Shown piece by piece: positions 15,112 to 59,315 of a stretch of 64,000 bases of DNA. The stretch covers positions 64,001 through 128,000 of the IMG/VR virus record IMGVR_UViG_3300035034_002381; one strand, given 5' to 3'. Position 1 is the stretch's first letter; every line of letters starts with the position of its first letter. A program made the translations under genes and the position numbers. Origin of the DNA: a virus. Lineage: Duplodnaviria > Heunggongvirae > Uroviricota > Caudoviricetes. Under the pieces are notes generated by a model. That model had not been told where the DNA came from and made no database searches. It was given only the letters and a program-made list of their open reading frames with translations.

Positions 15112-15948
15112 ATGAAAATTAAGAAGTTTTCTGAGTTTTTATTTGAAAAAGAAAATGTCAAGGAATTGAGATTATGCTTTGTTGGAGATATTATGCAACA
15201 TGATAAAGTCGTGACTGACGATTCATTCGAAAACGTGAGGTCACTTCTAAAATCTGCTGATATCTGTGTGGGAAATTTAGAAACTATAATTACTGGTGAA
15301 AACAATAATGAAATAATTGATGGGCAAATTAAATTTAGTGCTGATGAAAGTCTTATCAAAGTTTTAAAAAATGTTGGCTTCACACATTTATCTCTCATTA
15401 ACAATCATTCACTTGACTATGGAATCGCAGGATTTCAAAAATCACAGACTGCGGTTGCTAAAGAAATAAAAATACTTAGTAAAGAAACAGAAATTTCCAA
15501 GAATGATCATAAGATCAATCTAGTTAACTTTACTACACATGTTAATAATAATATTAATAATGAATTTTCGGATCATCTAATGACACCTGACGGTTATTCT
15601 AGTAAAGCTAAGAGCATTAATATAGGATATATCCATTGGGGAGGGCAATATAACCCTAAACCCGATTCTGAACAAAAATCTCTAGCATCTAATCTAATTA
15701 ATAATGGATATCCTATTGTTATTGGTTCAGGCCCACACGTTAATCATAAAGTTGTTCGAGATGGTGAATCGATTATTGCGTATTCTTTAGGAGATTTTAT
15801 AAGTAAACACAATGATGATAGAGCTAAAGATCAAGGAAAGATTTTGATTATAGATTTTAAAAATGATATCATTGATAATGTTATGGTTTATACGACACAG
15901 ACCGATAAGAATAACGTTATCCAAATTAAAAAAAGAGAAATAATTTAG
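15112..15948 (+). CDS. CapA/PGA_cap-family metallophosphoesterase-like protein with leader (MKIKKFSEFLFE)
   Basis: CapA motifs FVGDIMQH, GNLET, NNHSLDYG, IHWG, GPHV and YSLGDF. Confidence 0.8.
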   Translation: MKIKKFSEFLFEKENVKELRLCFVGDIMQHDKVVTDDSFENVRSLLKSADICVGNLETIITGENNNEIIDGQIKFSADESLIKVLKNVGFTHLSLINNHSLDYGIAGFQKSQTAVAKEIKILSKETEISKNDHKINLVNFTTHVNNNINNEFSDHLMTPDGYSSKAKSINIGYIHWGGQYNPKPDSEQKSLASNLINNGYPIVIGSGPHVNHKVVRDGESIIAYSLGDFISKHNDDRAKDQGKILIIDFKNDIIDNVMVYTTQTDKNNVIQIKKREII

Positions 15949-15988: not shown

Positions 15989-17242
15989 ATGAAAAGAAAC
16001 ATATTATCATTTAGCGAATTTTTGCTCGAGTCTGTCGCAATACCCCAAGATGTTACAAAGTCAATAGCAGAATTTCATAAATTACAATCAGAAATAACTC
16101 GAGTTACTGCAGAACTTGAATTTCTAAAAGATGAATTTAAAGAGTTCGACGAGATGGTCGATCCTGTACTCACAGGATTAAAGGAGACTAACAAAAAAAT
16201 TGCGATTACTGAGGGTTATGCAATTAAAATTTCTCGTTTTGGTTATGAACGCACAAATAAATCTTATGCTAAAGCTTTTAAAATGGCTTTATCGAAAGTT
16301 AATAAGTCAACTCAAAAAATTCTAAGTGAGGCATTGGAAGCTTCTGCAACTACGTCAAAGATAAAATCCTCATATTCGATTGATAAATTATCAGAAGGTG
16401 AAATTAACGAGGCAGGAATTTGGGCTAAGATTGGAAAGGCGATTAAAGGTGTAGTCGGAAAATTTCTAAATATTTTTAAAAGAGAAATCAAAACTATTGA
16501 TCAATCAAATAATGAACTTGAAAAACTTGCAAGTCAATTAAGCGAATCTATTGATGAAAAAAAATCCGAAATTGAATCTATCAATGAAGCCATGAAAGAT
16601 ATTTCTAGACTAGAAAGTATTAAAAAGAAATCTGGTGGAAATCCTAATAAAGCTGCTATGTATGCTCGAAATATGGCCAAGTCTATTAAAGATAAACATA
16701 AAGCTTATGCCCGAGGAAAGGCGGCAATCGAAGTTTTTGGTGACGAGGGCGGAGAATTGGCAAGAATCTTTTTTGATAAAGCTAAAACTTTAGGTTATGA
16801 TATTGCTAAATCAGAATATCAAGATTTGAAGGTTATTGAAAAACCGATGCCAAGAACTTTGAAAAAAGGAAAGGATTTAACAGAAGCTAAAAAGCACGAT
16901 GGTAGAGAAGGATCTTCATGGGGTCATGGTCGTGATGGTGATCCAATTTTACCTATAGGTTCTGTTAATTTTATCAGTGGAAAAAATAAATATTTTAATG
17001 TTTATGAAACCTGGCCAGACAGTGTTTTGGAAATTTGGAAGACTAGAGATGGTAAATATCGAGCAGTCTGTACAGCGGGTAAAGGACCTATTTATAAAAT
17101 AGGCACAAGTAATTCGTTTATTCATGATCAAAACAGTAGATATTTATTTGGTGGTGAAATGGTTGATTGGGTAGAAGTTGAAGGTATGATGAATCTTGTA
17201 GATCTTTATGGTAAATCAATGCCCACATACACATATAAATAA
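15989..17242 (+). CDS. Leader-bearing polyprotein-like internal protein (MKRNILSFSEFLLES)
   Basis: Leader plus internal LSEGEINEA, LSESIDE, INEA and LTEA linkers. Confidence 0.6.
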   Translation: MKRNILSFSEFLLESVAIPQDVTKSIAEFHKLQSEITRVTAELEFLKDEFKEFDEMVDPVLTGLKETNKKIAITEGYAIKISRFGYERTNKSYAKAFKMALSKVNKSTQKILSEALEASATTSKIKSSYSIDKLSEGEINEAGIWAKIGKAIKGVVGKFLNIFKREIKTIDQSNNELEKLASQLSESIDEKKSEIESINEAMKDISRLESIKKKSGGNPNKAAMYARNMAKSIKDKHKAYARGKAAIEVFGDEGGELARIFFDKAKTLGYDIAKSEYQDLKVIEKPMPRTLKKGKDLTEAKKHDGREGSSWGHGRDGDPILPIGSVNFISGKNKYFNVYETWPDSVLEIWKTRDGKYRAVCTAGKGPIYKIGTSNSFIHDQNSRYLFGGEMVDWVEVEGMMNLVDLYGKSMPTYTYK

Positions 17243-17253
17243 AAACTAAAACT

Positions 17254-18852
17254 ATACTAAATTTCAAAGAACATTTAAACGAATCTAAAAGCGATTTCGT
17301 GGTTTATCATAATCAGTATTCAACAGCAATTAATGAGGGTGAAAAATATGCGAAAGCTAGAGGTTATGAATTAGATCAACAGGAATATTCAAATGCGTAT
17401 TTAGACGCATTCTTTAAACCTGAAGAAGGTAAGACTAAAAAGGATAGTTTTAAGCTTTTTAAAAATGATAAAGAACAAAGAAAACAACTACATGTTCAAA
17501 TATACAATCGCGGTATGAAAAAGTTTGAACTAAATATGTACATAAACAATAAAAAACTAATGAAAAGAAATCTTAAATTATTTGAAGAATTTATAAATGA
17601 ATCTTTTTGGTCTTTATCTAAATTAGGTGATAAATTCGATCAATTATTATCAAAAGAACTTAAAAAAATTAAAGGCTGCATATTTTATGTGAAAGGAAGA
17701 GATTTATATTGTAATGATGAATTACTTTTTAAAATAAATGGTGATAAAGATTCTGTAGAAAGTATTGTCAAAAAAGTTAGATTAAAGTTGAACGAATCTT
17801 TAATTAATGAAAAAGAATCTTATGAAAGAGGTTGTGCCATGCTATACTTTGAAAGTAATTGCACCAAAGAGGTTCGTGAGATGATTAAAGAAGAGGATTT
17901 ATATGTTGAGGAAGGCGATGTTTCTTTTGGTAAAGAAACAGAACCTCATTGTACTTTACTTTATGGGTTTGATAAAAAGGTAGAAGCAAATGAAGCATTG
18001 AAAATTTGTGAGAATTTTACATTTGAAGCATGTGAAGCACATAACATTTCTTTATTTGAATCTAAAAAATATGATGTTTTGAAATATGATATCAAAGGTA
18101 AAAATATTAAGGAATGTAATGAAGCCCTTTCTGATTTACCCTTTGAATCTGATTTTCCTGATTTTCACCCTCATATGACTGTTGCATATCTTCAACCAGG
18201 TAAAGGAAAGGAATATACTAAAATGATTAAAGAGTCTCATGCAAGATTGCAAGTGAATCCAGAAAAAATTGTTTATTCTCATCCTAATGGTAAGAAAGAA
18301 GAAATCCAAGTTTTAACGGAAGTTAAAGAAAATGAAAAAGATAATCCTTGCTGGGATGGTTATGAAATGATCGGTATGAAAACTAAAAATGGTAAAAAAG
18401 TTCCTAATTGCGTACCTATAGATGAATCAATTACCGAAAGTCGTGGGCCTAATAGTTTTGAACACTATTTTAAAAACGCCAAGAAAAAACTATCTAGATC
18501 CGGTTTCAAGATAAAAGAAGTTAAAGATACTTATATTAAAGATCATACTGCTATTGTTATTATTTATACTGAGTCTGGTCCAGGTGGTGGAGATAATGAA
18601 TGGATACAAATATTTTATAATACTGAGGAAGAAAGAAAGAAGATTTATAAAGAGTTTGATATCGATGAATCTGTAAGCGAAGGGAAAAAGGATGATAAAA
18701 AAGGCTGGTATAAGGATAAGAAAAAATGGAATCAGGCAAGAAAAAAACTAACTAATGTAGCCGATGACAATGAAATCTGGAGCAAAAATGCGGATGCAGA
18801 TATTATTGCCTTTTGGTATGACGAAAAAGACGAAGGTTGGGTACAAAAATAA
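17254..18852 (+). CDS. Leader-bearing polyprotein containing an Acb1/gp57B-like 2H phosphoesterase
   Basis: In-frame ATA at 17254 gives (M)LNFKEHLNES. A second leader MKRNLKLFEEFINES starts at 17560. HCTLLYG and HMTVAY are the two HxT motifs. A CWDGY...VPNCVP module follows. Confidence 0.65.
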   Translation: MLNFKEHLNESKSDFVVYHNQYSTAINEGEKYAKARGYELDQQEYSNAYLDAFFKPEEGKTKKDSFKLFKNDKEQRKQLHVQIYNRGMKKFELNMYINNKKLMKRNLKLFEEFINESFWSLSKLGDKFDQLLSKELKKIKGCIFYVKGRDLYCNDELLFKINGDKDSVESIVKKVRLKLNESLINEKESYERGCAMLYFESNCTKEVREMIKEEDLYVEEGDVSFGKETEPHCTLLYGFDKKVEANEALKICENFTFEACEAHNISLFESKKYDVLKYDIKGKNIKECNEALSDLPFESDFPDFHPHMTVAYLQPGKGKEYTKMIKESHARLQVNPEKIVYSHPNGKKEEIQVLTEVKENEKDNPCWDGYEMIGMKTKNGKKVPNCVPIDESITESRGPNSFEHYFKNAKKKLSRSGFKIKEVKDTYIKDHTAIVIIYTESGPGGGDNEWIQIFYNTEEERKKIYKEFDIDESVSEGKKDDKKGWYKDKKKWNQARKKLTNVADDNEIWSKNADADIIAFWYDEKDEGWVQK

Positions 18853-18859
18853 AAAGAAT

Positions 18860-18892
18860 ATGAAAACATTTAAAGAATTCTTAAACGTTTGA
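18860..18892 (+). pseudogene. Leader-only mini-ORF MKTFKEFLNV*
   Basis: ATGAAAACATTTAAAGAATTCTTAAACGTTTGA; the first 20 nt are identical to the start of ORF 3468. Confidence 0.6.
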
Positions 18893-19350: not shown

Positions 19351-20586
19351 ATGAGTAATTTCAACAAATTTTTAAGCAACTTACCCACTGTGAAAGAAGT
19401 GGAAATCAAATCTTCTAATTCCAAGACATCAGTCATTTATCTTAAATCAACTGATAGGAATTCTCTCAAAGAAAATTTTTCAAAATATATTTCTGATATT
19501 GGTCTAGAATCAATTGAAAAAAGATCAAGTAGATCTAGTGTTAAAGCTGAAATAGTCAATACAGAAAATATCAATTATGAAATATTTTTTAAGCCTGTTT
19601 CTGGGGGTCAGTCTGAATCTACATTAAATGCTGCAATCACAGAACTTTTCCCTTGTATTGCCTTTATAGAAAATTTTCCAAATATTCAAGAGTCTCAAGA
19701 TTTTTATCAATTAATCTTAGAATCAGATACTCTCAAATGTTATCTCTCCGAAAATGATGCTGAGATGGGTAAAAGATTTATCACACAAGCTAAATATTCT
19801 ACTAAATTTGATGAAAAAATACAAAATGCGATTGCAATTTATAACTACATTAAAACACTAGATGAACAACAAAAAATCTCAGAATTGTTTTGGTGCCCAA
19901 GAGCTAAACCTGAAGGTATTGATAAAAACCATCCTGGTGATATATTCGTAAAGTTTACCAACCATTCATACATTGGAATTTCATTAAAGACAGGTAGCCA
20001 AAAATCAAATGAACCCAAACTTAATACTTATGTCAAACCTATTTTAGAATTTTTTAATGAATCTACCACAGATATTCAAAGGGAGTTAGGTGAATTAACA
20101 TATCAAAACTTAGGATTACCGGAAAGTTATTATACGAAGGAACATAAAGAAAGGACCTTTGACTTTCTTGAGAAATTAGAAGAAAACAATAAAGATATAT
20201 ACGAAGGATACTACAACAAAAACCTAGATTATTTACGAAGCAGATTAATTAAAGTTTTTACTGAGAATAATGATATTTTTGTAGATTTTATTAAACAAAA
20301 AATACTTAAAGATTTTGCAGAAGTACCTACAGTAGTTATTAAAGCAATTAATAAAGATTGGCAAGAAATTACTGAAAGTGATGAACTTTCTAAAGATATC
20401 GAACAGATTAAAAATATCACTGGAAGAATCCATCCAACAAGAAAACAACAATTTGAAATTGATTTAGATTTAGGTAATCAAGTTAAAAAAATGTCATTTT
20501 CAATTAGAACAAATAAACCGGCAGGTGTTATGCATAAATTAGGTCAATTTTATAATTTGGCAGTAAAATTTAATCATTACGAATGA
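19351..20586 (+). CDS. Putative PD-(D/E)xK restriction-endonuclease-like protein
   Basis: HPGDIFVKF...IGISLK arrangement of catalytic D and K. Confidence 0.55.
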   Translation: MSNFNKFLSNLPTVKEVEIKSSNSKTSVIYLKSTDRNSLKENFSKYISDIGLESIEKRSSRSSVKAEIVNTENINYEIFFKPVSGGQSESTLNAAITELFPCIAFIENFPNIQESQDFYQLILESDTLKCYLSENDAEMGKRFITQAKYSTKFDEKIQNAIAIYNYIKTLDEQQKISELFWCPRAKPEGIDKNHPGDIFVKFTNHSYIGISLKTGSQKSNEPKLNTYVKPILEFFNESTTDIQRELGELTYQNLGLPESYYTKEHKERTFDFLEKLEENNKDIYEGYYNKNLDYLRSRLIKVFTENNDIFVDFIKQKILKDFAEVPTVVIKAINKDWQEITESDELSKDIEQIKNITGRIHPTRKQQFEIDLDLGNQVKKMSFSIRTNKPAGVMHKLGQFYNLAVKFNHYE

Positions 20587-52349: not shown

Positions 52350-52598
52350 ATGGAATATGTTAAACTATACGAAGATTTTAATCCTTCAGTAAGTAGACAA
52401 AGAAATAATGAACGCAAAAAGAAATTAGTCGAAAGATATAAAAGGCGTGATGAACAAATCAAAAACACCAAAGATAAAGGAGACGAATCTAAAGCTAACT
52501 TGTATACTAAACGAAAGGAAGTTGATAGATTAGAAATCCAGAAAATTGATGTTAAAAACGAAATTATCAATATCAAGGAAAAAAGAAGAAAGAAATGA
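52350..52598 (+). CDS. Basic small protein with partial leader (MEYVKLYEDF)
   Basis: Preceded by the AATATATA promoter variant at 52338. Confidence 0.5.
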   Translation: MEYVKLYEDFNPSVSRQRNNERKKKLVERYKRRDEQIKNTKDKGDESKANLYTKRKEVDRLEIQKIDVKNEIINIKEKRRKK

Positions 52599-52843
52599 AA
52601 AAATTTGAAGAATTTGTAAACGAAAAAATAGTATTTGGTATTTATGACAAATTTAAAAATACATCGGTAGGTGCAAAAGAATTTGCTTCTGCAATCAGCT
52701 CAGATGATGATGCAGTAGAGGCGTCAATAGATTTTTTAGATGCTATGGAAATTTGGTTTAAAAAAACCCAAAAAGGAAATTGGGAAGATGTTCAACAAGA
52801 ACTAGCAGACAATATTCCTAATGATATAGAATCGTATAGATAA
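52595..52843 (+). CDS. Leader-bearing small protein (MKKFEEFVNE)
   Basis: Clear leader. Confidence 0.6.
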   Translation: MKKFEEFVNEKIVFGIYDKFKNTSVGAKEFASAISSDDDAVEASIDFLDAMEIWFKKTQKGNWEDVQQELADNIPNDIESYR

Positions 52844-52857
52844 AAATAAATAAGAAT

Positions 52858-53033
52858 ATGAAAAAATTTGAAGAATTTGTAAACGAAGGATCAACTTTCG
52901 ATAGTATCGCTGATCATTTGAGAAACAAAAAAATATCAGATGCTGTTTATAAAAAGGAACAATGTCATTATTATTAGACGATAATAGCACTCTAGAATTT
53001 ACATTTAATGACAATACTAAAATAAAAAGATAA
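52858..53033 (+). pseudogene. Leader-bearing small gene (MKKFEEFVNE), apparently frameshifted
   Basis: Stops at 52977. A -1 shift in TATAAAAAGG continues as KGTMSLLLDDNSTLEFTFNDNTKIKR* to 53033. Confidence 0.5.
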
Positions 53034-53035
53034 TT

Positions 53036-53266
53036 ATGAAATCATTTACAAAATTTGTAGAAACAACAAGATCACTTAACGAAAAGGAAGATCTAGAAAA
53101 GGAGTATAAAGAAGTCTTTGATGCTCTATTAGATAAATACGAAGTATCTTCACCCGCAGAACTTAGCGACGAAAAGAAAGCTGAATTTTTTGATGAAATT
53201 AAAAAACATTATACTGCAGGTAAAGGCGCAACCGATAAAGGCGAAGATCTTGTAGGAAAGGAGTAA
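53036..53266 (+). CDS. Leader-bearing small protein (MKSFTKFVE..SLNE)
   Basis: YKEVFDALLDKYEVSSPAELSDEKKAEFF module. Confidence 0.6.
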   Translation: MKSFTKFVETTRSLNEKEDLEKEYKEVFDALLDKYEVSSPAELSDEKKAEFFDEIKKHYTAGKGATDKGEDLVGKE

Positions 53267-54540
53267 TGCAATACGTCCACGGATATACACAATTTCTTAA
53301 TGAACAATTGATAATGGAAGGTGGCGCTTTTGGTCACCTTCATCATCCATTTGAAGATCATAGTTTAACATTTAATGATTTATCAGAAATGATAGAATTA
53401 ACTGTAACTGGAGCGTTTAATCAAAACAATTTTGTTCAAGAAAAAACTGATGGTCAAAATCTCATGTTTACATGGAAAAATGGCGAAATACGTGGTGCCC
53501 GAAGCAAGAAACATTTAAGAAATCAAGGTGAAAACTCATTATCCAAACAAGAAATAAGTCAAATGTATTCTGGTCGTGGTGAAATTTTTACAGCATTTAC
53601 AGAAGCTATTAATGATTTAGAATCAGCAATTAAAAGTCTTTCTTCTAAACAAAAAGATAGAATTTTTTCTGAAGGAAGTAAATTCATGAGTGTAGAAATT
53701 ATTACACCTATGACACAAAACACGGTACCATACGGTTTATCAATGTTAGTCTTCCATGGTACTAATGAATATGATATCGAGGGCAATGTTTTAAATCAAT
53801 ATAAAACTGAGGCTAAAATTCTTGCAGGAATGATTAAGCAAATAAACCAAGACGTACAAAATACGTTCTTTATCCGTGGTCCGCAAAATATTAATTTAGA
53901 AGCTTTACCCAATACTGCTAAAAAGAAAAATTACTATCAAGGTAAGCTACGTAAATTAGTAAATAAATACAATTTGTCTATGTCAGATTCTATACCAGAT
54001 TATTTGTATAAAGTATGGCGAGATAAAACTATTGACATTTTATCTAATAAAAATTATACAGAAGAAATAATCGATGGATTAGCTATGCGCTGGGGTAAAA
54101 AACAAAAATCATATTCAATACCTAATATCAAAAAAGATCTTGGTTCAGAATTTTCTGATTGGGTCAAAAACTTTGAAAAGCGTGGCGGAGAGTATGATAA
54201 ACTCTGGAAAGAATATATTGCACCTGTCGAAGGTTTATTTTTAGAACTTGGTGCAGATATTTTAACCAATATTGAAAGTTTCTTAACAGCAGATCAAAGA
54301 AATGCGACTGAAGAAATGCGTCAAGAAATTGAAAGTACAATAGAAAAGATTAGAAATTCTGATGATGTTACAGCTATTGAAAAGTTGGAACATCAATTAC
54401 AAAGAATTGATACAGCAGGTGGACTAAAAAGATTAGTGCCTTCTGAAGGTATTACATTTTTATATAAAGGAAAACTCTATAAATACACAGGACTATTTGC
54501 TGCTATTAATCAAATAGGTTCACTCATAAGATATAACTAA
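53266..54540 (+). CDS. Leader-bearing RNA/DNA-ligase-fold nucleotidyltransferase (KxDG)
   Basis: MQYVHGYTQFLNE leader; GGAFGHLHHPFED; motif I EKTDG; C-terminal EGITF..KYTG. Confidence 0.65.
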   Translation: MQYVHGYTQFLNEQLIMEGGAFGHLHHPFEDHSLTFNDLSEMIELTVTGAFNQNNFVQEKTDGQNLMFTWKNGEIRGARSKKHLRNQGENSLSKQEISQMYSGRGEIFTAFTEAINDLESAIKSLSSKQKDRIFSEGSKFMSVEIITPMTQNTVPYGLSMLVFHGTNEYDIEGNVLNQYKTEAKILAGMIKQINQDVQNTFFIRGPQNINLEALPNTAKKKNYYQGKLRKLVNKYNLSMSDSIPDYLYKVWRDKTIDILSNKNYTEEIIDGLAMRWGKKQKSYSIPNIKKDLGSEFSDWVKNFEKRGGEYDKLWKEYIAPVEGLFLELGADILTNIESFLTADQRNATEEMRQEIESTIEKIRNSDDVTAIEKLEHQLQRIDTAGGLKRLVPSEGITFLYKGKLYKYTGLFAAINQIGSLIRYN

Positions 54541-55394
54541 TGACAACTGTTGAAAATACGAAAGTTTTAAAAGAATTTACGCAACCTATTCTTAACTCAG
54601 ATGTTCCAGAAGTCTTGGGATTTTTGAATAAATATATTTTGCCTGAAATAGGACTATACGGATTAGATGAAGATGCAACAATAATTGGTTCTGCTGGAAA
54701 AAAGTTATTAAATCAAACCAGCGGTGATATAGATATTGCAATCTTACGAGGTTCCGTTGCTAAACATTTTGATAGGGATGATGTATTAATGGCTATACAT
54801 GAAAAACTTTCATCAATGGGATATAGAACAAATATTCAGAAAGGATTTAGTCAAGTTAACTTTGCTCTTCCAGCACCAAATGGGTTTGTTCAAGTTGATT
54901 TAATGATCACTGATAATTTGGATTGGGCAAAATTTGTTTTTCATTCTCCAGATTATACTAAATCTGAATCAAATTATAGGGGTGTCTACCGAGGAATGTT
55001 ATTAAATGCTGTTGCATCTGAAATTGTTAAAAAAACAGTCAAAAAATTAGATGGGGAAATTGAGGAATATGAACAATATGTAATACGTTCTACCTTTGGT
55101 TTATTTAAAGTACGTAAAACTCTTTTAGGAAAAAATGGTAAGCTAATCAAGACACCTAAACTTTTAGATAAATATGAGCAACGCATCTCCAATAATCCTA
55201 TTGATGCTGTAAAATTACTTTTTGGTAAAGACGTTAGAATCGATGATATAAGTACATTTGAAAAAATGTTGAATGTAATCAAGAGTCAAAAATTCTTATA
55301 TCCTGGAAAGGTTGGAATTATCAAAAATAAATTTATGTGGTATCTTGGAAAAACCAATTTAAATATACCATCAGAAATAACTAATATACCATGA
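54540..55394 (+). CDS. Pol-beta-superfamily nucleotidyltransferase
   Basis: IGSAGKK...SGDIDIA and third acidic residue in VQVDLM. Confidence 0.75.
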   Translation: MTTVENTKVLKEFTQPILNSDVPEVLGFLNKYILPEIGLYGLDEDATIIGSAGKKLLNQTSGDIDIAILRGSVAKHFDRDDVLMAIHEKLSSMGYRTNIQKGFSQVNFALPAPNGFVQVDLMITDNLDWAKFVFHSPDYTKSESNYRGVYRGMLLNAVASEIVKKTVKKLDGEIEEYEQYVIRSTFGLFKVRKTLLGKNGKLIKTPKLLDKYEQRISNNPIDAVKLLFGKDVRIDDISTFEKMLNVIKSQKFLYPGKVGIIKNKFMWYLGKTNLNIPSEITNIP

Positions 55395-55831
55395 AACATA
55401 TAAAATCATATAAAGAAATTCTTAACGAGTCTATTAATTCTCGAGTACGTTCAAAAATTGTTAAGTTACTCAAGACTCAAGGAATTCAGCATAAAGTAGA
55501 TTATGAATATTCTGCTGGACATTTTTTGGTGCCTACTATAGAAGCAGCTGAAGATATTGCTGATGCGATCGGTGATAAATTTCATGTGACTATTTTAGAT
55601 AGAAAGGGTAAAGAAGGAAATACACTTGTAATGATAACTGAAGATGTTAATGAGGCTATCGATTATATGGAAATGGATTATAATTCAAGAAAAGAAATTC
55701 TTAAAAAAACCTTTCCAGATCTTATGGAAGATTCAGTAAAAGATTACGCTTTAAAAACATTTAAAGAATTACCGCCAGAAATGCAAAAAGAAATAGCTGA
55801 ACAATATAACGTAATACTAAAAGATCAATGA
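55391..55831 (+). CDS. Leader-bearing two-module protein (MKHIKSYKEILNES)
   Basis: Leader; internal ITEDVNEA linker. Confidence 0.6.
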   Translation: MKHIKSYKEILNESINSRVRSKIVKLLKTQGIQHKVDYEYSAGHFLVPTIEAAEDIADAIGDKFHVTILDRKGKEGNTLVMITEDVNEAIDYMEMDYNSRKEILKKTFPDLMEDSVKDYALKTFKELPPEMQKEIAEQYNVILKDQ

Positions 55832-56571
55832 AAAATTTTGTAAGTTTCTCAAACTTTGTTAATGAATCTCAAAAAGATACACAGGGAAATACACCTGTCA
55901 ATATTTTGATTGGTAGATTTGATCCCTTCCATATCGGGCATTATTCTGCTGCGAAAGAATTAGTTGATAAAAATGGCTATCCTGTAGTAATTGTTTCTGT
56001 TAGAGGAAAGGGAGATTTTGGAAAGGGTACAACAGTAAGTAAAGAACTTTTTGATAAAATGGTTTCAAAGCTTGTAAAGACTGTGCCATTTATTAACGGA
56101 CACATAGAAATAACTAATGTTTCTTTTGATAAACAATTGTTTGTGAATCTTAGACCTAAGTATGAACCTGTACTTTTAGGAGCAGGCGCAGACAGAATCA
56201 AAGGATATACTGCGCAAATGAATTCTTTCAGAGACAAAAAGGGCAATGTAATTAATATGCGCCAAGATTTTGATGTAGTTCAAACTTCACGAAAAGCAAG
56301 TGGCACTGAGGTCCGTGAAATAATTTCTAAAAAAGATAAAAAGAATTTCTTAAGATTAATGCCTAAAGAACTTCATAATTTTTGGGATGAACTGGTCAAA
56401 GAACTTAATGAGACAAAAAGACCATTATCTTACCATATTGATATATATGATAAGGCCATACAAAAATTGGTAGAAAGTAAGAAAAAAGATAACAAAACTA
56501 TTTCAACAATAGAAAGATTAATAGTGGAGAAGACTAAACTAATCCAAAATTATTCTGATCTTATTAAGTAA
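55828..56571 (+). CDS. Leader-bearing HIGH-motif cytidylyl/adenylyltransferase-like protein
   Basis: MKNFVSFSNFVNES leader; IGRFDPFHIGH; GAGADR; ASGTEVR. Confidence 0.8.
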   Translation: MKNFVSFSNFVNESQKDTQGNTPVNILIGRFDPFHIGHYSAAKELVDKNGYPVVIVSVRGKGDFGKGTTVSKELFDKMVSKLVKTVPFINGHIEITNVSFDKQLFVNLRPKYEPVLLGAGADRIKGYTAQMNSFRDKKGNVINMRQDFDVVQTSRKASGTEVREIISKKDKKNFLRLMPKELHNFWDELVKELNETKRPLSYHIDIYDKAIQKLVESKKKDNKTISTIERLIVEKTKLIQNYSDLIK

Positions 56572-56576
56572 AAGAC

Positions 56577-58358
56577 ATGCCAGGAATAAAGAAATTAGAC
56601 AGAATTTATCAATCAGACGGATTGATCGAAGCTAAAAAACATTTAGAAGGTAACATAACGATTACTGAAAAATTGGATGCTCATAGATTTTCGTTTCAAG
56701 TAAATGAAGATAAAAAAGTTTCGTATTATAAGAAAAACGATAATCGTGAGATTTCTAAAATTGATCGGATTATTACTGATTTATATGAGCGAGCAATAGT
56801 TCATATCGAATCTTTACCTAAGTCTATTCTTAAAAACATTCCTAAAAATACGAGGTTTGGATTTTCATATTTTCCGAATCAGAAACCTCTTAGAATAAAA
56901 TATTCAAAAATTCCAGAAAGCAGATTAGTACTAACTGATATATCATCAAGATCTGATGTAGGTAAAGTCCGCAAGGTTTATGAAGATCAAAAATATTTAG
57001 ATAATTGGGCAGATATTCTTAAAGTTTCTAAGCCCCCAATAATTTTTCAGGGTGTACTTGAAGAAAATCAAAGAGATCATATTCTTAATCTTGTGAAGGG
57101 AACAGATTCTACTGTTGCGTTTTTCTCACAACATATCGAGGGAATATTTGAAAAAACATTTTCTGGCAATAACATTATTGAGGCGCTAGTTTTCAAAAAT
57201 AAAAATGGCTTAACTCAATTAAGGGATCCATCATATAAAATTTTTAATGAAGCTGCTCGACCTACAGTTAGTCGGGATTTTTATGACTTGACAATTATAC
57301 AAATTCAAGAATTCATGGAGAATTATGAATTCGGTATTTTTCGAGATAATCTTTCAGAAAATGAACGATATATCAATTTAATATCTGATGCATATAACAA
57401 ATTTATTGATGCCGATTTAATCGATGAAAATTTTAATCCTGAGTTTCTTAAACCTAATATTATTGGCACGCATGGTTGTTTAGGACGCAAATTTATCAGA
57501 AATAACGAAACTCTTCAAAAAATAAATAGATCAGCTTTAAACGAGGAACTATTTAAAGTATTTTTGATTAGTCTACATCGTAAAAAATCTCCTCATGGAT
57601 TATTGAATCAAAGCATAATCAACAGTTTTAATCAGACTATCGAAAAAATTCAAGAAAGTATAAGTGCAAATGATGGCGAGGGTCTTCTTTCGTATCATGA
57701 AACTATTAAAATTCTCGAGGGTAATAACGTTAAATTAGACGATCAACAACCTAATTATATCAAGGTAGTTTCTTCATTACAAAAATCATTCAATAAAGAA
57801 ATTAAACATAAAGAAATTGAGCCTTTACCTAAAGCTATATGTATTATTGGCAAATTCGATTTTATTACAAAAAAACATATAGATTTAATCGAAGGATTTT
57901 CGGCAGAAAATGTAATCATTGTCAATCTTTCTAAAAAGAAGTTGAAATTATCTAAAGAACTTTTTCAACTTGAGGATCGTGAGGTTGATAAAATACTTAA
58001 ATCTTTACAAGATGAAAACGATAACATTAAAGAAATTGTTAATTGTTCATATTATTCTCTTGAAAAGATTTTTTACAAAGTTAGAAAAGTGGGATATGAA
58101 CCGATTAATTTTTATGTAAATGAAAAATCAATTGCTAATTATTCGATTCAATATAATACGATCAAACATATTTTAGGTGATCGTTTAAAAATCTCAAAGG
58201 ATTTTGATATCTCTGGTTTTTCTATTGATGATAAGCGCACTATTTTCAGATCAATTGAAGATGATGATTATGTAAAATTTAAAGAAGTCTCACCTAAAAT
58301 TCTTAAGAACTTCTGGGAGATATATAAATCCAGATATAACATTTGGAAAAAAGAATAA
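56577..58358 (+). CDS. Fusion of degenerate ligase-fold domain and degenerate HIGH-transferase domain
   Basis: ITEKLDAHRF (KxDA instead of KxDG), IEALVF and IGKFDFITKKH (HIGH lost). Confidence 0.6.
   Translation: MPGIKKLDRIYQSDGLIEAKKHLEGNITITEKLDAHRFSFQVNEDKKVSYYKKNDNREISKIDRIITDLYERAIVHIESLPKSILKNIPKNTRFGFSYFPNQKPLRIKYSKIPESRLVLTDISSRSDVGKVRKVYEDQKYLDNWADILKVSKPPIIFQGVLEENQRDHILNLVKGTDSTVAFFSQHIEGIFEKTFSGNNIIEALVFKNKNGLTQLRDPSYKIFNEAARPTVSRDFYDLTIIQIQEFMENYEFGIFRDNLSENERYINLISDAYNKFIDADLIDENFNPEFLKPNIIGTHGCLGRKFIRNNETLQKINRSALNEELFKVFLISLHRKKSPHGLLNQSIINSFNQTIEKIQESISANDGEGLLSYHETIKILEGNNVKLDDQQPNYIKVVSSLQKSFNKEIKHKEIEPLPKAICIIGKFDFITKKHIDLIEGFSAENVIIVNLSKKKLKLSKELFQLEDREVDKILKSLQDENDNIKEIVNCSYYSLEKIFYKVRKVGYEPINFYVNEKSIANYSIQYNTIKHILGDRLKISKDFDISGFSIDDKRTIFRSIEDDDYVKFKEVSPKILKNFWEIYKSRYNIWKKE
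58319..58326 (+). promoter_or_regulatory. GATATATA candidate late promoter
   Basis: Inside the end of the upstream ORF, 38 nt before ATG 58365. Confidence 0.4.
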
Positions 58359-58364
58359 AAAAAC

Positions 58365-59315
58365 ATGAAAAATATTAGATCATTTCGAGAATTTGAAGCT
58401 TTAACCGAAGCTAAGAAATTTTATACTACAAAGGATATTGTAAAAATGGCAAAAAATGCTGGTGATATTGTCATAGATGCCAAATACGCAATTGAGGATT
58501 TGGGAGTAGCTTATGGAAATAAAGTACCATCAACTGAATTGGATAGAGTTTTGACTCAATATGATTTAGAATTAGAAGATTTAAATGAGGGTCGTAAAAA
58601 AATCCAACTTAAAAGAAAATATGGAGAACGTTCTGCAGTTACCGCCGGTAAGCGTGCACCTGTCAGAGATAGGATATTAGGAAAAATCGCTGAGTCTGAA
58701 GAAGGCAGAATGTCCAGAAGTTCATTACAAGCATTTATCGCATCCACAAACGAAGATTCAGGTAGAAAAACCACTTTTTCATGGGTCCGAAAAAACTCAC
58801 GATATTTTAAAACTGTTAAAGAATCTGGTACAACATACTATAAATTAAGTATGTATGGTAAGCGTGCACTAAAGCGCGGAAATCTTAATGAATCTGAATC
58901 TTTAAATGAAGGACAGTTTTCTTGGTTGACTCAAGATGGTGGGACTCAAATTGGAAGTGAAAGAAAAAATACTATAACCGTTTATATGTTTGATGACAAA
59001 GGAAATAAATGGGAAGAAAGAAGTTATGAGGGTTATGGAGAATTTGGTGGAAAAGATTATTTTGATCTTTTAGCTGAAATGAATGGTTATTCTCAAGAAG
59101 ATGCTAAAAGTAAAAGTCGTAAAATAGGCGAAGATCTTCGCGAAATAGGTATTGATCTAATGTATGATAAAGGTATTAAACCTAAAAATGGTGGTAAGGT
59201 ATTATTTCCAGCTTTAGTTTCAAATAAAAATTACAATTGGAAACGACACGATTTTACAAAACAACCCGAATACGATCCTAACCAAGGTTGGTATACTGAA
59301 GATTACGGTTGGTAA
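58365..59315 (+). CDS. Leader-bearing three-module polyprotein (MKNIRSFREFEALTE)
   Basis: Modules separated by LTE|A, LNE|G and LNESESLNE|G. Confidence 0.6.
   Translation: MKNIRSFREFEALTEAKKFYTTKDIVKMAKNAGDIVIDAKYAIEDLGVAYGNKVPSTELDRVLTQYDLELEDLNEGRKKIQLKRKYGERSAVTAGKRAPVRDRILGKIAESEEGRMSRSSLQAFIASTNEDSGRKTTFSWVRKNSRYFKTVKESGTTYYKLSMYGKRALKRGNLNESESLNEGQFSWLTQDGGTQIGSERKNTITVYMFDDKGNKWEERSYEGYGEFGGKDYFDLLAEMNGYSQEDAKSKSRKIGEDLREIGIDLMYDKGIKPKNGGKVLFPALVSNKNYNWKRHDFTKQPEYDPNQGWYTEDYGW

What the first reader, a model, noticed from the sequence alone, without database searches (positions are those of the whole stretch)
17821..18310. Acb1/gp57B-like 2H phosphoesterase embedded in a leader-tagged polyprotein
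Seen: two HxT motifs (HCTLLYG at 17947, HMTVAY at 18172) with SDFPDFHPH before the second, flanked by INE and LTE linkers. Known: T4 gp57B (Acb1) is a 2H phosphoesterase that degrades CBASS cyclic oligonucleotides and has a similar DFDDYTPH-IT-SY arrangement. Inference: this could be a pre-packaged anti-CBASS or anti-type III CRISPR signal nuclease that acts before phage gene expression. A 2',3'-cyclic-phosphate RNA repair role is the alternative.
Basis: partly seen in the sequence, partly recalled or inferred. Interest (0 to 1): 0.75.

Follow-up and report, generated by a model that had tools for sequence, protein, structure and literature searches.

The report
Leader-tagged phage 2H phosphodiesterase cargo module
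A huge lake phage encodes an intact two-histidine (2H) phosphodiesterase, distantly like the anti-CBASS enzyme Acb1, inside a multi-module protein that carries phage T4's "load me into the head" tag and head-protease cut sites, so it is probably injected ready-made with the DNA, though its substrate and its packaging remain untested.

Summary
Residues 172-341 of the ORF (window 17812-18321) form a confident 2H phosphoesterase fold with both HxT motifs (H217, H292).

It belongs to a large phage family, about 3,500 clusters at 50% identity. The nearest named family is Acb1: Pfam PF23474 at 29.8 bits (cut-off 27), and phrog_755 is the only PHROG hit. Sequence and fold do not separate it from LigT, Usb1 or CPDase-type 2H enzymes, and it lacks Acb1's C-terminal lid. 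The substrate is therefore open. Cyclic-oligonucleotide signals lead; healing of RNA 2',3'-cyclic-phosphate ends is close behind, because relatives are fused to CCA-adding enzymes.

The packaging idea is well supported indirectly:
- The leader MKRNLKLFEEFINE matches T4's capsid-targeting sequence. A profile of this phage's leaders finds only the ipII, ipIII and 61.1 N-termini in T4.
- The genome encodes an S77 prohead protease-scaffold and a gp23-like capsid protein with the same (L/I)NE sites.
- 65 of 72 stand-alone relatives carry such a leader.

One correction: the true gene most likely starts at 17560 (430 aa). The upstream 87 codons are a start-less remnant, fused in frame where 8 bp holding the stop are missing.

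This scan has already noted leader-tagged 2H enzymes in at least 23 other genomes. Injected 2H domains were predicted in 2017.

The parts
17254..17547 (+). Remnant of a small leader-tagged gene ('M1'). It has a leader-like ILNFKEHLNE-S without ATG (ATA at 17254), then a module ending ...ELNMYIN. Most likely a pseudogene piece, not part of the functional protein.
   Evidence: the module is a separate 97-aa gene starting MKKFKEYLNE-S in relative L086:2803-3096, and is C-terminal in P0008, P0010 and P0013; in the 95%-identical relative L088 it has no ATG and two frameshifts.
17548..17559 (+). Junction. Relative to L088, 8 bp (TAATAAAA) holding the stop codon of M1 are missing here, so the remnant reads in frame into the next gene.
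   Evidence: pairwise DNA alignment; frames.
17560..17601 (+). Capsid-targeting-type leader MKRNLKLFEEFINE, the probable true start of the cargo gene, ending in an INE|S protease-type site.
   Evidence: relatives P0004, P0005 and P0233 (430 aa) start here; a leader profile finds 26 sites in this genome and only the ipII, ipIII and 61.1 N-termini in T4.
17602..17811 (+). Module M2 (no known family), ending in the linker LNE-SLINE.
   Evidence: homologous block in P0004 after ...SLNE|SFW; no PHROG; pLDDT 62-78.
17812..18321 (+). 2H phosphoesterase domain (aa 172-341), bounded by L-INE| and V-LTE|.
17947..17955 (+). First catalytic HxT motif (H217-C-T219). H is invariant in 86 family members.
18172..18180 (+). 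Second catalytic HxT motif (H292-M-T294). H and T are invariant in the family.
18322..18426 (+). Linker plus two-Cys module PCWDGY...VPNCVPIDE. It is not Pfam DUF3721. The same module is repeated in C-terminal extensions of portal proteins and occurs on Dps-like and XkdF-protease proteins.
18427..18669 (+). Module M5 (unknown), between IDE|SITE|S and DIDE|.
   Evidence: pLDDT below 50 at both linker clusters.
18670..18852 (+). Module M6 (unknown, Lys/Trp-rich) after SVSE|G, plus the stop codon.

Best explanation
The gene 17560-18852 encodes a head-cargo 'train'. It consists of a T4-type capsid-targeting leader, then five modules separated by (L/I)xE sites. The third module (aa 172-341 of the long ORF) is an active 2H phosphodiesterase.

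Proposed mechanism:
1. The leader takes the precursor into the prohead core.
2. The phage's S77 (gp21-like) protease cuts after the Glu of the leader and the linkers.
3. The freed enzyme of about 19 kDa stays in the head and enters the host with the DNA.
4. There it hydrolyses a phosphodiester or cyclic-phosphate bond by the metal-independent two-His mechanism.

My leading candidate substrate is a nucleotide immune signal (CBASS or type III CRISPR cyclic oligonucleotides, or 2'-5'-linked ones), as for Acb1 and other viral 2H PDEs.

Shown: the fold, the intact catalytic motifs, family membership, leader homology to the T4 CTS, and the presence of protease, scaffold and capsid protein with the same site motif. 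Inferred: packaging, cleavage, injection and substrate.
For: Fold and catalytic motifs:
- Invariant H..T twice across 86 family members.

Nearest family is Acb1:
- PF23474 scores 29.8 bits, above the cut-off of 27.
- phrog_755 is the only PHROG hit (E 3e-10), and T4 gp57B scores 228 bits to it.
- PDB hits by sequence profile include Acb1 entries.

Leader matches the T4 CTS:
- T4 IPII and IPIII start MKTYQEFIAE and IPI starts MKTFKEF.
- A profile of 14 window leaders searched on all six frames of T4 returns only the N-termini of ipIII, ipII and gp61.1.
- The same profile finds 26 sites in this genome, all on the coding strand. Codons of the leaders vary.

Head machinery is present:
- Peptidase_S77 (48 bits) is fused to a coiled-coil tail with ten [LI]NE sites.
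- The gp23-like capsid protein has SLNE|A at residue 45.

Family-wide pattern:
- 65 of 72 stand-alone relatives have [LIV]xE in their N-terminal extension, mostly 6-8 residues before the first strand. Shuffles give 28.8 +/- 4.
- IMG/VR relatives mostly start MKxIKLFEEFxxE.
- 15 of 21 large viral contigs with the family, and 6 of 6 that are at least 90% complete, encode S77.
- Embedded copies are also preceded by [LIV]xE.

Other support:
- [LI]NE[SAG] is 5.6-fold enriched in leader-tagged proteins beyond residue 20 (Fisher p 5e-4).
- The linkers after LTE, at IDE-SITE and at IDE-SVSE fall in segments with pLDDT below 50.
- The two-Cys module is shared with portal, XkdF-protease and Dps-like proteins.
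- Injected 2H domains that degrade defence nucleotides were predicted by Iyer et al. 2017 (PMC5512222).
- Viral 2H PDEs do degrade such signals (PMC9117128; 10.1101/2025.08.21.671373).
Against: - There is no virion proteomics or cleavage data for any family member. I found no cultured phage with both the leader-tagged form and a proteome.
- Acb1 membership is marginal. 2_5_RNA_ligase2 scores 26.3 bits on this domain and matches 83 of 86 members, against 81 for Acb1. hhalign to T4 Acb1 covers only 32 columns. Acb1-named BFVD entries rank 14th or lower, with TM about 0.5-0.6.
- Acb1's C-terminal lid with W147 has no counterpart.
- Two structural groups of viral 2H PDEs were inactive on an 18-signal panel, so fold does not predict substrate.
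- CCA-adding-enzyme fusions point to RNA ends rather than signals.
- The Maribacter phage Molly homologue has no leader although the phage has S77.
- 26 tagged genes in 173 kb is a very large cargo set.
Confidence: 0.4

Rival explanations
1. Same packaged, protease-released 2H enzyme, but its job is RNA end-healing. It would open the 2',3'-cyclic phosphates left on tRNA or other RNA by metal-independent defence RNases (anticodon nucleases, HEPN RNases), so that a CCA-adding enzyme or a ligase can restore them. It may work with the leader-tagged metallophosphatase encoded nearby.
For: - 5 of 20 multi-domain relatives carry a CCA-adding enzyme (PolyA_pol +/- RNA-binding and tRNA_NucTran2 domains). 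Three of them have it directly after the 2H domain. Two also hold a tRNA-ligase-CPD-type 2H domain.
- Pfam 2_5_RNA_ligase2 and LigT_PEase match most members.
- LigT-like PH0099 and plant CPDase score as well as Acb1 by sequence profile and by Z.
- A leader-tagged PGA_cap metallophosphatase and a PhoH-like ATPase are in conserved synteny with the 2H gene in three phages.
Against: - No RNA ligase (PF09414) and no CCA-adding enzyme were found in the 173-kb fragment, which is 60% complete.
- Iyer et al. 2017 never saw the polyvalent-type 2H domains associated with RNA ligases.
- Polyvalent proteins string together unrelated effectors, so fusion is weak evidence of a shared pathway.
- The nearest phage family by Pfam cut-off and by PHROG is Acb1.
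Confidence: 0.25
2. The protein is an ordinary cytoplasmic multi-domain phage enzyme. The conserved N-terminal peptide would serve another purpose (translation efficiency, regulation, or recognition by another enzyme), and the (L/I)xE motifs would be by-products of a Lys/Glu/Asn/Leu-rich proteome. The 2H enzyme would then act only after it is synthesised in the infected cell.
For: - No direct evidence of packaging exists.
- General [LI]xE frequency is no higher in tagged proteins than in untagged ones (1.38 against 1.51 per 100 aa).
- T4 Acb1 itself is not known to be packaged.
- Another shared phage leader was reassigned to a radical-SAM partner in an earlier finding of this scan.
- The Molly homologue works without a leader.
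Against: - The leader profile picks out exactly the experimentally defined CTS proteins IPII and IPIII in T4.
- No radical-SAM gene is present in the fragment.
- The specific [LI]NE[SAG] motif is enriched 5.6-fold in tagged proteins, and it also marks the scaffold and the capsid-protein propeptide.
- The position of [LIV]xE relative to the first strand is conserved across the family far beyond shuffles.
- Upstream DNA is not conserved and leader codons vary.
Confidence: 0.2
3. The 2H domain is an offensive RNase or 3'-end trimmer of the Usb1 type. Once delivered, or once made early, it would attack host RNAs rather than defend against signals or repair damage.
For: - Iyer et al. 2017 proposed this for polyvalent-protein 2H domains.
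- Relatives are fused to ADP-ribosyltransferase effector domains.
Against: - Usb1 is tied with five other 2H families within about 1 Z unit, and sequence identity is 8%.
- No sequence-level link to Usb1 appears in Pfam or in the PDB profile searches.
Confidence: 0.1
4. The locus is decaying and the protein is not functional.
For: - The upstream M1 cassette is a start-less remnant fused by an 8-bp deletion.
- A leader-only mini-ORF follows the gene.
- The 7 codon differences to relative L088 are all non-synonymous.
Against: - The 430-aa frame is intact and 98.6% identical in L088, whereas M1 has frameshifts there.
- All invariant family residues are kept.
- 0 synonymous out of 7 differences is not significant.
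Confidence: 0.05

Closest known systems
Acb1 (T4 gp57B; Erwinia phage FBB1 Acb1, PDB 7T26/7T27; Pfam PF23474; phrog_755)
   Same: Phage-encoded single-domain 2H fold with two HxT/S motifs. The D-F-x-D-[YF]-x-P-H-x-T-x-[AS]-Y block is shared. Aromatic residues stand at the positions of Acb1 W74 (invariant F253 here) and F107 (F286). The domain passes the Pfam gathering score narrowly, and phrog_755 is its only PHROG hit.
   Different: - No C-terminal lid or W147, and no aligned Y12.
- About 20 residues longer, with a conserved G-x-E-x-E-P loop before the first His.
- Made with a capsid-targeting leader or inside a multi-module precursor.
- Substrate untested.
Phage 2H PDE-9 of Burkholderia phage BCSR5 (PDB 9Q2G/9Q2Y) and the structural groups of viral 2H PDEs (Doherty et al. 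2025, bioRxiv 10.1101/2025.08.21.671373)
   Different: PDE-9 uses its own N-terminal 15 residues as a lid. Here the N-terminal peptide is a leader shared with unrelated proteins and is predicted to be removed. That paper does not mention capsid packaging.
T4 internal proteins IPI, IPII, IPIII and Alt: capsid-targeting sequence plus gp21 processing
   Same: Same leader consensus (MKT[FY][KQ]EFI.E against MK..K.F.EF[ILV]NE). The cleavage motif (L/I)xE is followed by a small residue. The genome has an S77 protease, a gp23-like capsid protein and a scaffold rich in the same sites. Cargo genes are variable and exchangeable.
   Different: The cargo set is far larger (at least 26 tagged genes in 173 kb). 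The cargo here is a multi-module precursor with internal sites, not a single small protein. It carries an enzyme class not known among T4 head proteins. Packaging has not been demonstrated.
2H domains of phage 'polyvalent proteins' (Iyer, Burroughs, Anand, de Souza, Aravind 2017, PMC5512222)
   Same: A 2H domain in a multi-domain phage protein predicted to be packaged and injected, and proposed to degrade defence nucleotides or act as an RNase. Relatives of this domain carry ART-PolyVal, GNAT and other effector domains.
   Different: Those were described as fusions to MuF or portal domains, with metallopeptidase processing. Here targeting is by a T4-type leader and release is by prohead-protease sites. 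Only one recognisable enzyme domain is present in this protein.
LigT / 2'-5' RNA ligase-type cyclic phosphodiesterases (E. coli LigT, Pyrococcus PH0099; Pfam PF13563, PF02834)
   Same: Same fold and motifs. Profile hits are as good as to Acb1.
   Different: The score is just under the Pfam cut-off for this domain (26.3 against 27). No associated RNA ligase was found. The family is phage-specific and leader-tagged.

Membership tests
2H phosphoesterase superfamily | Two HxT/S motifs on the two lobes of the fold | tested here: met
   H217-C-T219 and H292-M-T294. Both His and the second Thr are invariant, and the first Thr is conserved in at least 90% of 86 relatives.
2H phosphoesterase superfamily | 2H fold (two pseudo-symmetric beta-sheets forming a cleft) | tested here: met
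   [not shown]
Acb1 (PF23474 / phrog_755) | Score above Pfam's curated gathering cut-off | tested here: met
   29.8 bits for the domain and 27.4 for the whole ORF, against a cut-off of 27. The margin is narrow.
Acb1 (PF23474 / phrog_755) | Closer to Acb1 than to other 2H families | tested here: inconclusive
   [not shown]
Acb1 (PF23474 / phrog_755) | C-terminal lid (residues 145-152, W147) that closes over the ligand (PMC9117128) | tested here: not met
   After the last strand comes V-LTE and a low-confidence linker. There is no Trp-bearing tail, and stand-alone relatives end 4-6 residues after the strand.
Acb1 (PF23474 / phrog_755) | Base-stacking aromatics Y12, W74, F107 (PMC9117128) | tested here: inconclusive
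   By hand alignment on the hhalign block and the conserved strands, W74 corresponds to invariant F253, F107 to F286 (aromatic in relatives), and Y12 to A180, which is not aromatic. No coordinates-based superposition was made.
Acb1 (PF23474 / phrog_755) | Hydrolysis of 3'3'-cGAMP and other CBASS signals; rescue from CBASS | not testable with these tools
   Needs the enzyme assay and phage or host genetics.
LigT-type RNA 2',3'-cyclic phosphodiesterase | Pfam PF13563/PF02834 above cut-off | tested here: inconclusive
   26.3 against 27 bits and 20.2 against 23.3 bits for this domain. Many relatives pass (best E 6.5e-15).
LigT-type RNA 2',3'-cyclic phosphodiesterase | Genomic association with RNA ligase or kinase repair partners | tested here: inconclusive
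   No PF09414 and no CCA-adding enzyme in the 60%-complete fragment. However, 5 of 20 multi-domain relatives are fused to CCA-adding enzymes.
T4-type capsid-targeted head cargo (internal proteins) | N-terminal leader homologous to the T4 CTS | tested here: met
   The leader profile A2 hits only the ipIII, ipII and 61.1 N-termini in all of T4 (E about 3e-3 each), and 26 sites in this genome including 17560.
T4-type capsid-targeted head cargo (internal proteins) | (L/I)xE cleavage site ending the leader, followed by a small residue | tested here: met
   F-INE|S at residues 98-102. The same motif stands in the capsid-protein propeptide and the scaffold.
T4-type capsid-targeted head cargo (internal proteins) | Cognate S77 (gp21-like) prohead protease and gp23-like capsid protein in the genome | tested here: met
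   PF03420 scores 48.3 bits and PF07068 scores 114.7 bits in the same record.
T4-type capsid-targeted head cargo (internal proteins) | Presence of the processed protein in virions and its ejection | not testable with these tools
   No proteome of a relative was found.
Polyvalent proteins (Iyer et al. 2017) | Several effector or enzymatic domains in one polypeptide of a phage or conjugative element | tested here: inconclusive
   Only the 2H domain is recognisable here. Relatives of the domain do sit in proteins with ART-PolyVal, GNAT, Topo I and CCA-adding domains.

The most novel reading that the evidence does not exclude
A whole phage-only family of 2H phosphodiesterases (thousands of sequence clusters) is, as a rule, pre-loaded into the capsids of T4-type and huge phages through the T4 capsid-targeting leader. 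It would be freed by the prohead protease, sometimes from multi-module 'cargo trains' assembled by fusing leader-tagged cassettes. Such phages would then inject a ready-made enzyme against nucleotide-based immunity (or RNA damage) before any phage gene is expressed. This would make prohead-protease-processed polyproteins a general delivery system for counter-defence enzymes.
Probability: 0.3. Interest if true: 0.75.

Novelty: new variant of a known kind. Interest (0 to 1): 0.55.

Why it matters
Known anti-CBASS and anti-signal nucleases are thought to act only after they are synthesised in the infected cell. A pre-packaged one would act from the moment of DNA entry. That would change how the timing race between nucleotide-signalling defences and phages is understood.

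The family is large and mostly tagged, so one proteomic or biochemical test on any cultivable member would decide the matter for thousands of phages.

The locus also shows how such cargo evolves. Leader-tagged cassettes are shuffled, fused and lost within a syntenic slot, much like the polymorphic internal-protein loci of T-even phages.

The component ideas are all in print or already noted by this scan: the T4 CTS, Acb1, diverse viral 2H PDEs and injected 2H domains. This is therefore an extension, not a new principle.

Tried and rejected
- **Direct PDB sequence search** with the whole ORF gave no hit. Only the family profile reached Acb1 and LigT-like entries.
- **Resolving Acb1 against LigT by structure.** Foldseek (pdb), VIA-align and BFVD were run. 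All 2H clades are tied, so the subfamily stays unresolved.
- **Two-Cys module as Pfam DUF3721.** Rejected. DUF3721 lies next to it in portal proteins but does not cover it.
- **Cultured relative with a virion proteome.** Only Maribacter phages Molly and Colly (leaderless copy), uncultured huge phages, and weak actinophage hits were found. No usable paper on Tenacibaculum phage PTm1 was found.
- **Correlation 'leader present only where S77 is present'.** Molly has S77 (27.1 bits) but a leaderless 2H, so there is no clean rule.
- **Radical-SAM-tag alternative.** No PF04055 in the fragment.
- **Programmed frameshift joining ORF 15989-17242 to the next frame.** No slippery heptamer was seen at the junction. 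Not pursued.
- **Whole-precursor model.** Only the 2H module was confident, so the folds of M2, M5 and M6 remain unknown.
- **Sequencing runs.** No RNA holder is listed. The DNA holders listed are lake and salt-lake metagenomes, one of them possibly the source. The first attempt failed.
- **Selection test against L088.** 0 synonymous and 7 non-synonymous codon differences, too few to interpret.
- **Literature.** No paper links Acb1 or 2H PDEs with a capsid-targeting sequence.
Full report
**1. What is there**

The window is bases 64001-128000 of a 173.5-kb, 31.5% G+C IMG/VR record of a huge phage. It was recovered from lake-type metagenomes.

- H217-C-T219 at 17947-17955.
- H292-M-T294 at 18172-18180.
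- S-D-F-P-D-F-H-P-H before the second motif.
- L-INE (17800-17811) in front of the domain and V-LTE (18310-18321) behind it.

**2. The domain is a real 2H phosphoesterase**

- Pfam gives Acb1 (PF23474) at 27.4 bits for the ORF and 29.8 bits for the domain alone, against a cut-off of 27. 2_5_RNA_ligase2 scores 26.3 (cut-off 27) and LigT_PEase 20.2.
- An exhaustive HMMER search found 3,489 clusters at 50% identity with E<=1e-3, and 1,265 with E<=1e-10. Most are proteins of 175-190 aa; some are domains of proteins up to 2,332 aa.
- In an 86-sequence alignment both catalytic His, the second Thr and five further positions are invariant.
- AlphaFold2 on that alignment gives pLDDT 91.8.
- Foldseek and VIA-align return only 2H structures:

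|---|---|
| Human Usb1 | 12.8 |
| Burkholderia phage BCSR5 PDE-9 | 12.7 |
| Plant CPDase | 12.3 |
| PH0099 (LigT-like) | 12.0 |
| Penguinpox cGAMP PDE | 11.6 |
| FBB1 Acb1 | 11.3 |
| E. coli LigT | 10.7 |

The two flanking (L/I)xE sites lie in the low-confidence stretches just outside the fold.

**3. Is it Acb1?**

For:
- The Pfam cut-off is passed.
- Among 38,880 PHROGs the only hit is phrog_755 (E 3e-10). T4 gp57B belongs to that family at 228 bits.
- The block around the second HxT aligns with T4 gp57B.
- Positions equivalent to Acb1's stacking residues W74 and F107 are aromatic.

Against:
- Family members match 2_5_RNA_ligase2 as often as, and more strongly than, Acb1 (83 against 81 of 86).
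- A family profile hits Acb1 and LigT-like PDB chains with equal E-values.
- In BFVD the close matches are family members from Maribacter, Tenacibaculum and uncultured phages. Acb1-named entries appear only from rank 14, with TM about 0.5-0.6.
- Acb1's defining C-terminal Trp lid (PMC9117128) has no counterpart.

I therefore treat this as a separate family of viral 2H phosphodiesterases whose nearest named relative is Acb1, not as an Acb1 orthologue. Doherty et al. 2025 show that viral 2H PDE groups differ sharply in substrate and that two groups cleaved none of 18 messengers. Fold alone therefore cannot give the substrate.

**4. Gene structure: a correction**

Relatives P0004 and P0005 begin with MKRNLKLYEEFIN(E/D). 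This is the peptide found internally here at residues 88-101, with its ATG at 17560.

A 95%-identical phage (L088) has the same gene called as 430 aa (P0233), 424 of 430 residues identical, starting at that Met.

The upstream 87 codons (M1) correspond to a separate leader-tagged 97-aa gene in relative L086. In L088 this piece has no ATG, two frameshifts, and a TAA after ...MYIN. In the window it also lacks an ATG (ATA at 17254), and 8 bp containing that stop are missing, so it reads in frame into the next gene.

The functional gene is thus most likely 17560-18852. Its layout is leader, module M2, the 2H domain, a two-Cys module, and modules M5 and M6.

**5. The leader is the T4 capsid-targeting sequence**

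- T4 IPII and IPIII begin MKTYQEFIAE and IPI begins MKTFKEF. This sequence directs proteins into the T4 prohead core (PMC3012670).
- At least 26 genes of this genome begin with MK(N)(L)K(T)F.EF(I/L/V)NE. Their codon choices vary and their upstream DNA is unrelated.
- A 15-position profile of 14 of these leaders was searched over all six frames of T4. It returned three hits only: the N-termini of ipIII, ipII and gp61.1 (MKTFKEFIKE...).
- The same record encodes a Peptidase_S77 (gp21-like) domain fused to a long coiled-coil tail with ten [LI]NE sites. A gp23-like capsid protein follows, with ...SLNE|A at residue 45.
- [LI]NE[SAG] is 5.6-fold enriched in the tagged proteins beyond their first 20 residues (p 5e-4).
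- No radical-SAM gene is present that could offer another role for the tag.

**6. The tag is a property of the 2H family**

- Of 72 stand-alone relatives with an N-terminal extension of at least 10 residues, 65 have [LIV]xE in it, mostly 6-8 residues before the first strand. Shuffled extensions give 28.8 +/- 4, with a maximum of 42.
- IMG/VR relatives mostly start MK.IKLFEEF..E. A few start exactly at the predicted mature end.
- Embedded copies are likewise preceded by [LIV]xE.
- 15 of 21 large viral contigs with the family encode S77, including all six that are at least 90% complete.

The leader is shared with unrelated proteins in the same genome: a PGA_cap metallophosphatase, DUF5661, an ATP-grasp-like protein and a cytidylyltransferase-like protein. 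It is therefore not a 2H-specific lid like the N-terminal lid of PDE-9.

**7. The 'polyprotein'**

- Module borders coincide with (L/I)xE sites that look like the C-terminal half of the leader (...SLNE|S...FNE|S), both here and in P0004 and P0005. This is what fusion of leader-tagged cassettes would produce. The M1 fusion shows one such event in progress.
- In a model of the 430-aa precursor only the 2H module is confident. The segments after LTE, at IDE-SITE and at IDE-SVSE have pLDDT below 50.
- The two-Cys module recurs in tandem in C-terminal extensions of portal proteins, and on Dps-like and XkdF-protease proteins, all of them head-interior proteins. It is not DUF3721.
- Synteny (PhoH, PGA_cap, variable cassettes, 2H gene, phrog_2496 gene, UPF0227) is kept in three phages while the cassettes differ. 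This recalls the polymorphic internal-protein loci of T-even phages.

**8. Function**

I consider packaging and release of the 2H module likely (about 0.7). It is inferred from homology to the T4 system, not shown.

For the substrate, two readings remain:
- *Nucleotide immune signals.* Supported by the Acb1/PDE-9 kinship and by the 2017 prediction that 2H domains of injected polyvalent proteins degrade defence nucleotides (PMC5512222).
- *RNA 2',3'-cyclic-phosphate ends.* Supported by fusions of the family's domain to CCA-adding enzymes in 5 of 20 multi-domain relatives. Others carry ART-PolyVal or ADP-ribosyltransferase, GNAT and topoisomerase domains. The syntenic leader-tagged metallophosphatase fits this reading too.

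The fragment holds no RNA ligase or CCA-adding enzyme.

I rank signal degradation first (about 0.45 of the functional space), RNA end-healing second (about 0.35), and a Usb1-like RNase third.

**9. Novelty**

All the component ideas are published: the T4 CTS and gp21 processing, Acb1, diverse viral 2H PDEs, and 2H domains in injected polyvalent proteins. I found no paper that joins a 2H PDE to a capsid-targeting leader.

This scan has already reported leader-tagged 2H enzymes in at least 23 other genomes and CTS-like cargo sets in many more.

New here:
- The multi-module precursor form.
- The documented cassette fusion.
- The T4 cross-genome test of the leader.
- The family-wide statistics.
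- The CCA-enzyme association.

Verdict: observation confirmed; interpretation partly supported; a new variant of a known kind.

Noticed in passing
L087:167-331 (T4 NC_000866 18966-19130, gene 61.1): T4 gp61.1, a 54-aa hypothetical protein, begins MKTFKEFIKE. Besides ipII and ipIII it is the only place in T4 hit by this phage's leader profile, so it may be an unrecognised CTS-bearing head protein.
   Followed up: partly
L002:13592-14411 (T4 genes ipI and 57B): T4 acb1 (57B) lies directly beside ipI. It begins MMEFKDFSTG, resembling IPI's MKTFKEFTST but without an (L/I)xE site. The leader profile does not hit it.
   Followed up: partly
window 18346-18420: A two-Cys module of about 25 aa (PCWDGY...NG..VPNC[VI]P) recurs as three tandem copies in the C-terminal extension of portal proteins (next to, but distinct from, DUF3721). 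It also occurs on Dps/ferritin-like and XkdF (S78) prohead-protease proteins. It is an unnamed module of head-interior proteins.
   Followed up: partly
window 17254-17559: A start-less remnant of a 97-aa leader-tagged gene, which is intact in L086:2803-3096. An 8-bp deletion that removed its stop codon has fused it in frame to the next gene. The same remnant is frameshifted twice in relative L088.
   Followed up: yes
genome G000:C1:17120-21007 (about 45 kb before the window start): The S77 prohead protease is fused to a coiled-coil scaffold-like tail of about 500 aa with ten [LI]NE sites. It is followed by a gp23-like capsid protein whose N-terminal 45 residues end in SLNE|A. The 600-700-aa protease-scaffold fusion recurs in about nine related huge-phage contigs.
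   Followed up: partly
window 18860-18892: A leader-only mini-ORF, MKTFKEFLNV-stop, sits directly after the cargo gene. Its first seven residues are identical to the T4 IPI N-terminus.
   Followed up: no
window 19351-20586: The phrog_2496 gene starts MSNFNKFLSNL here, but its orthologues in L085 and L086 start with the full leader (MKRNLRLYEEFINE / MQRKLKMYDEFINE). The tag can evidently be lost or replaced.
   Followed up: no
window 15112-15948: A PGA_cap (CapA-type) metallophosphatase (134 bits) carries the leader MKIKKFSEFLFE. It keeps its place beside PhoH and near the 2H gene in three related phages, making it a possible partner phosphatase.
   Followed up: partly
proteins P0124, P0136, P0141, P0195, P0210 (metagenomic relatives): Giant phage proteins join this 2H family to CCA-adding enzymes, ART-PolyVal ADP-ribosyltransferases and a second, tRNA-ligase-type 2H domain. 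Each 2H domain is preceded by [LIV]xE.
   Followed up: partly
window 52595-59315: A run of leader-tagged genes lies here, including a cytidylyltransferase-like HIGH nucleotidyltransferase (55828-56571, PF01467). The others have no Pfam match.
   Followed up: no
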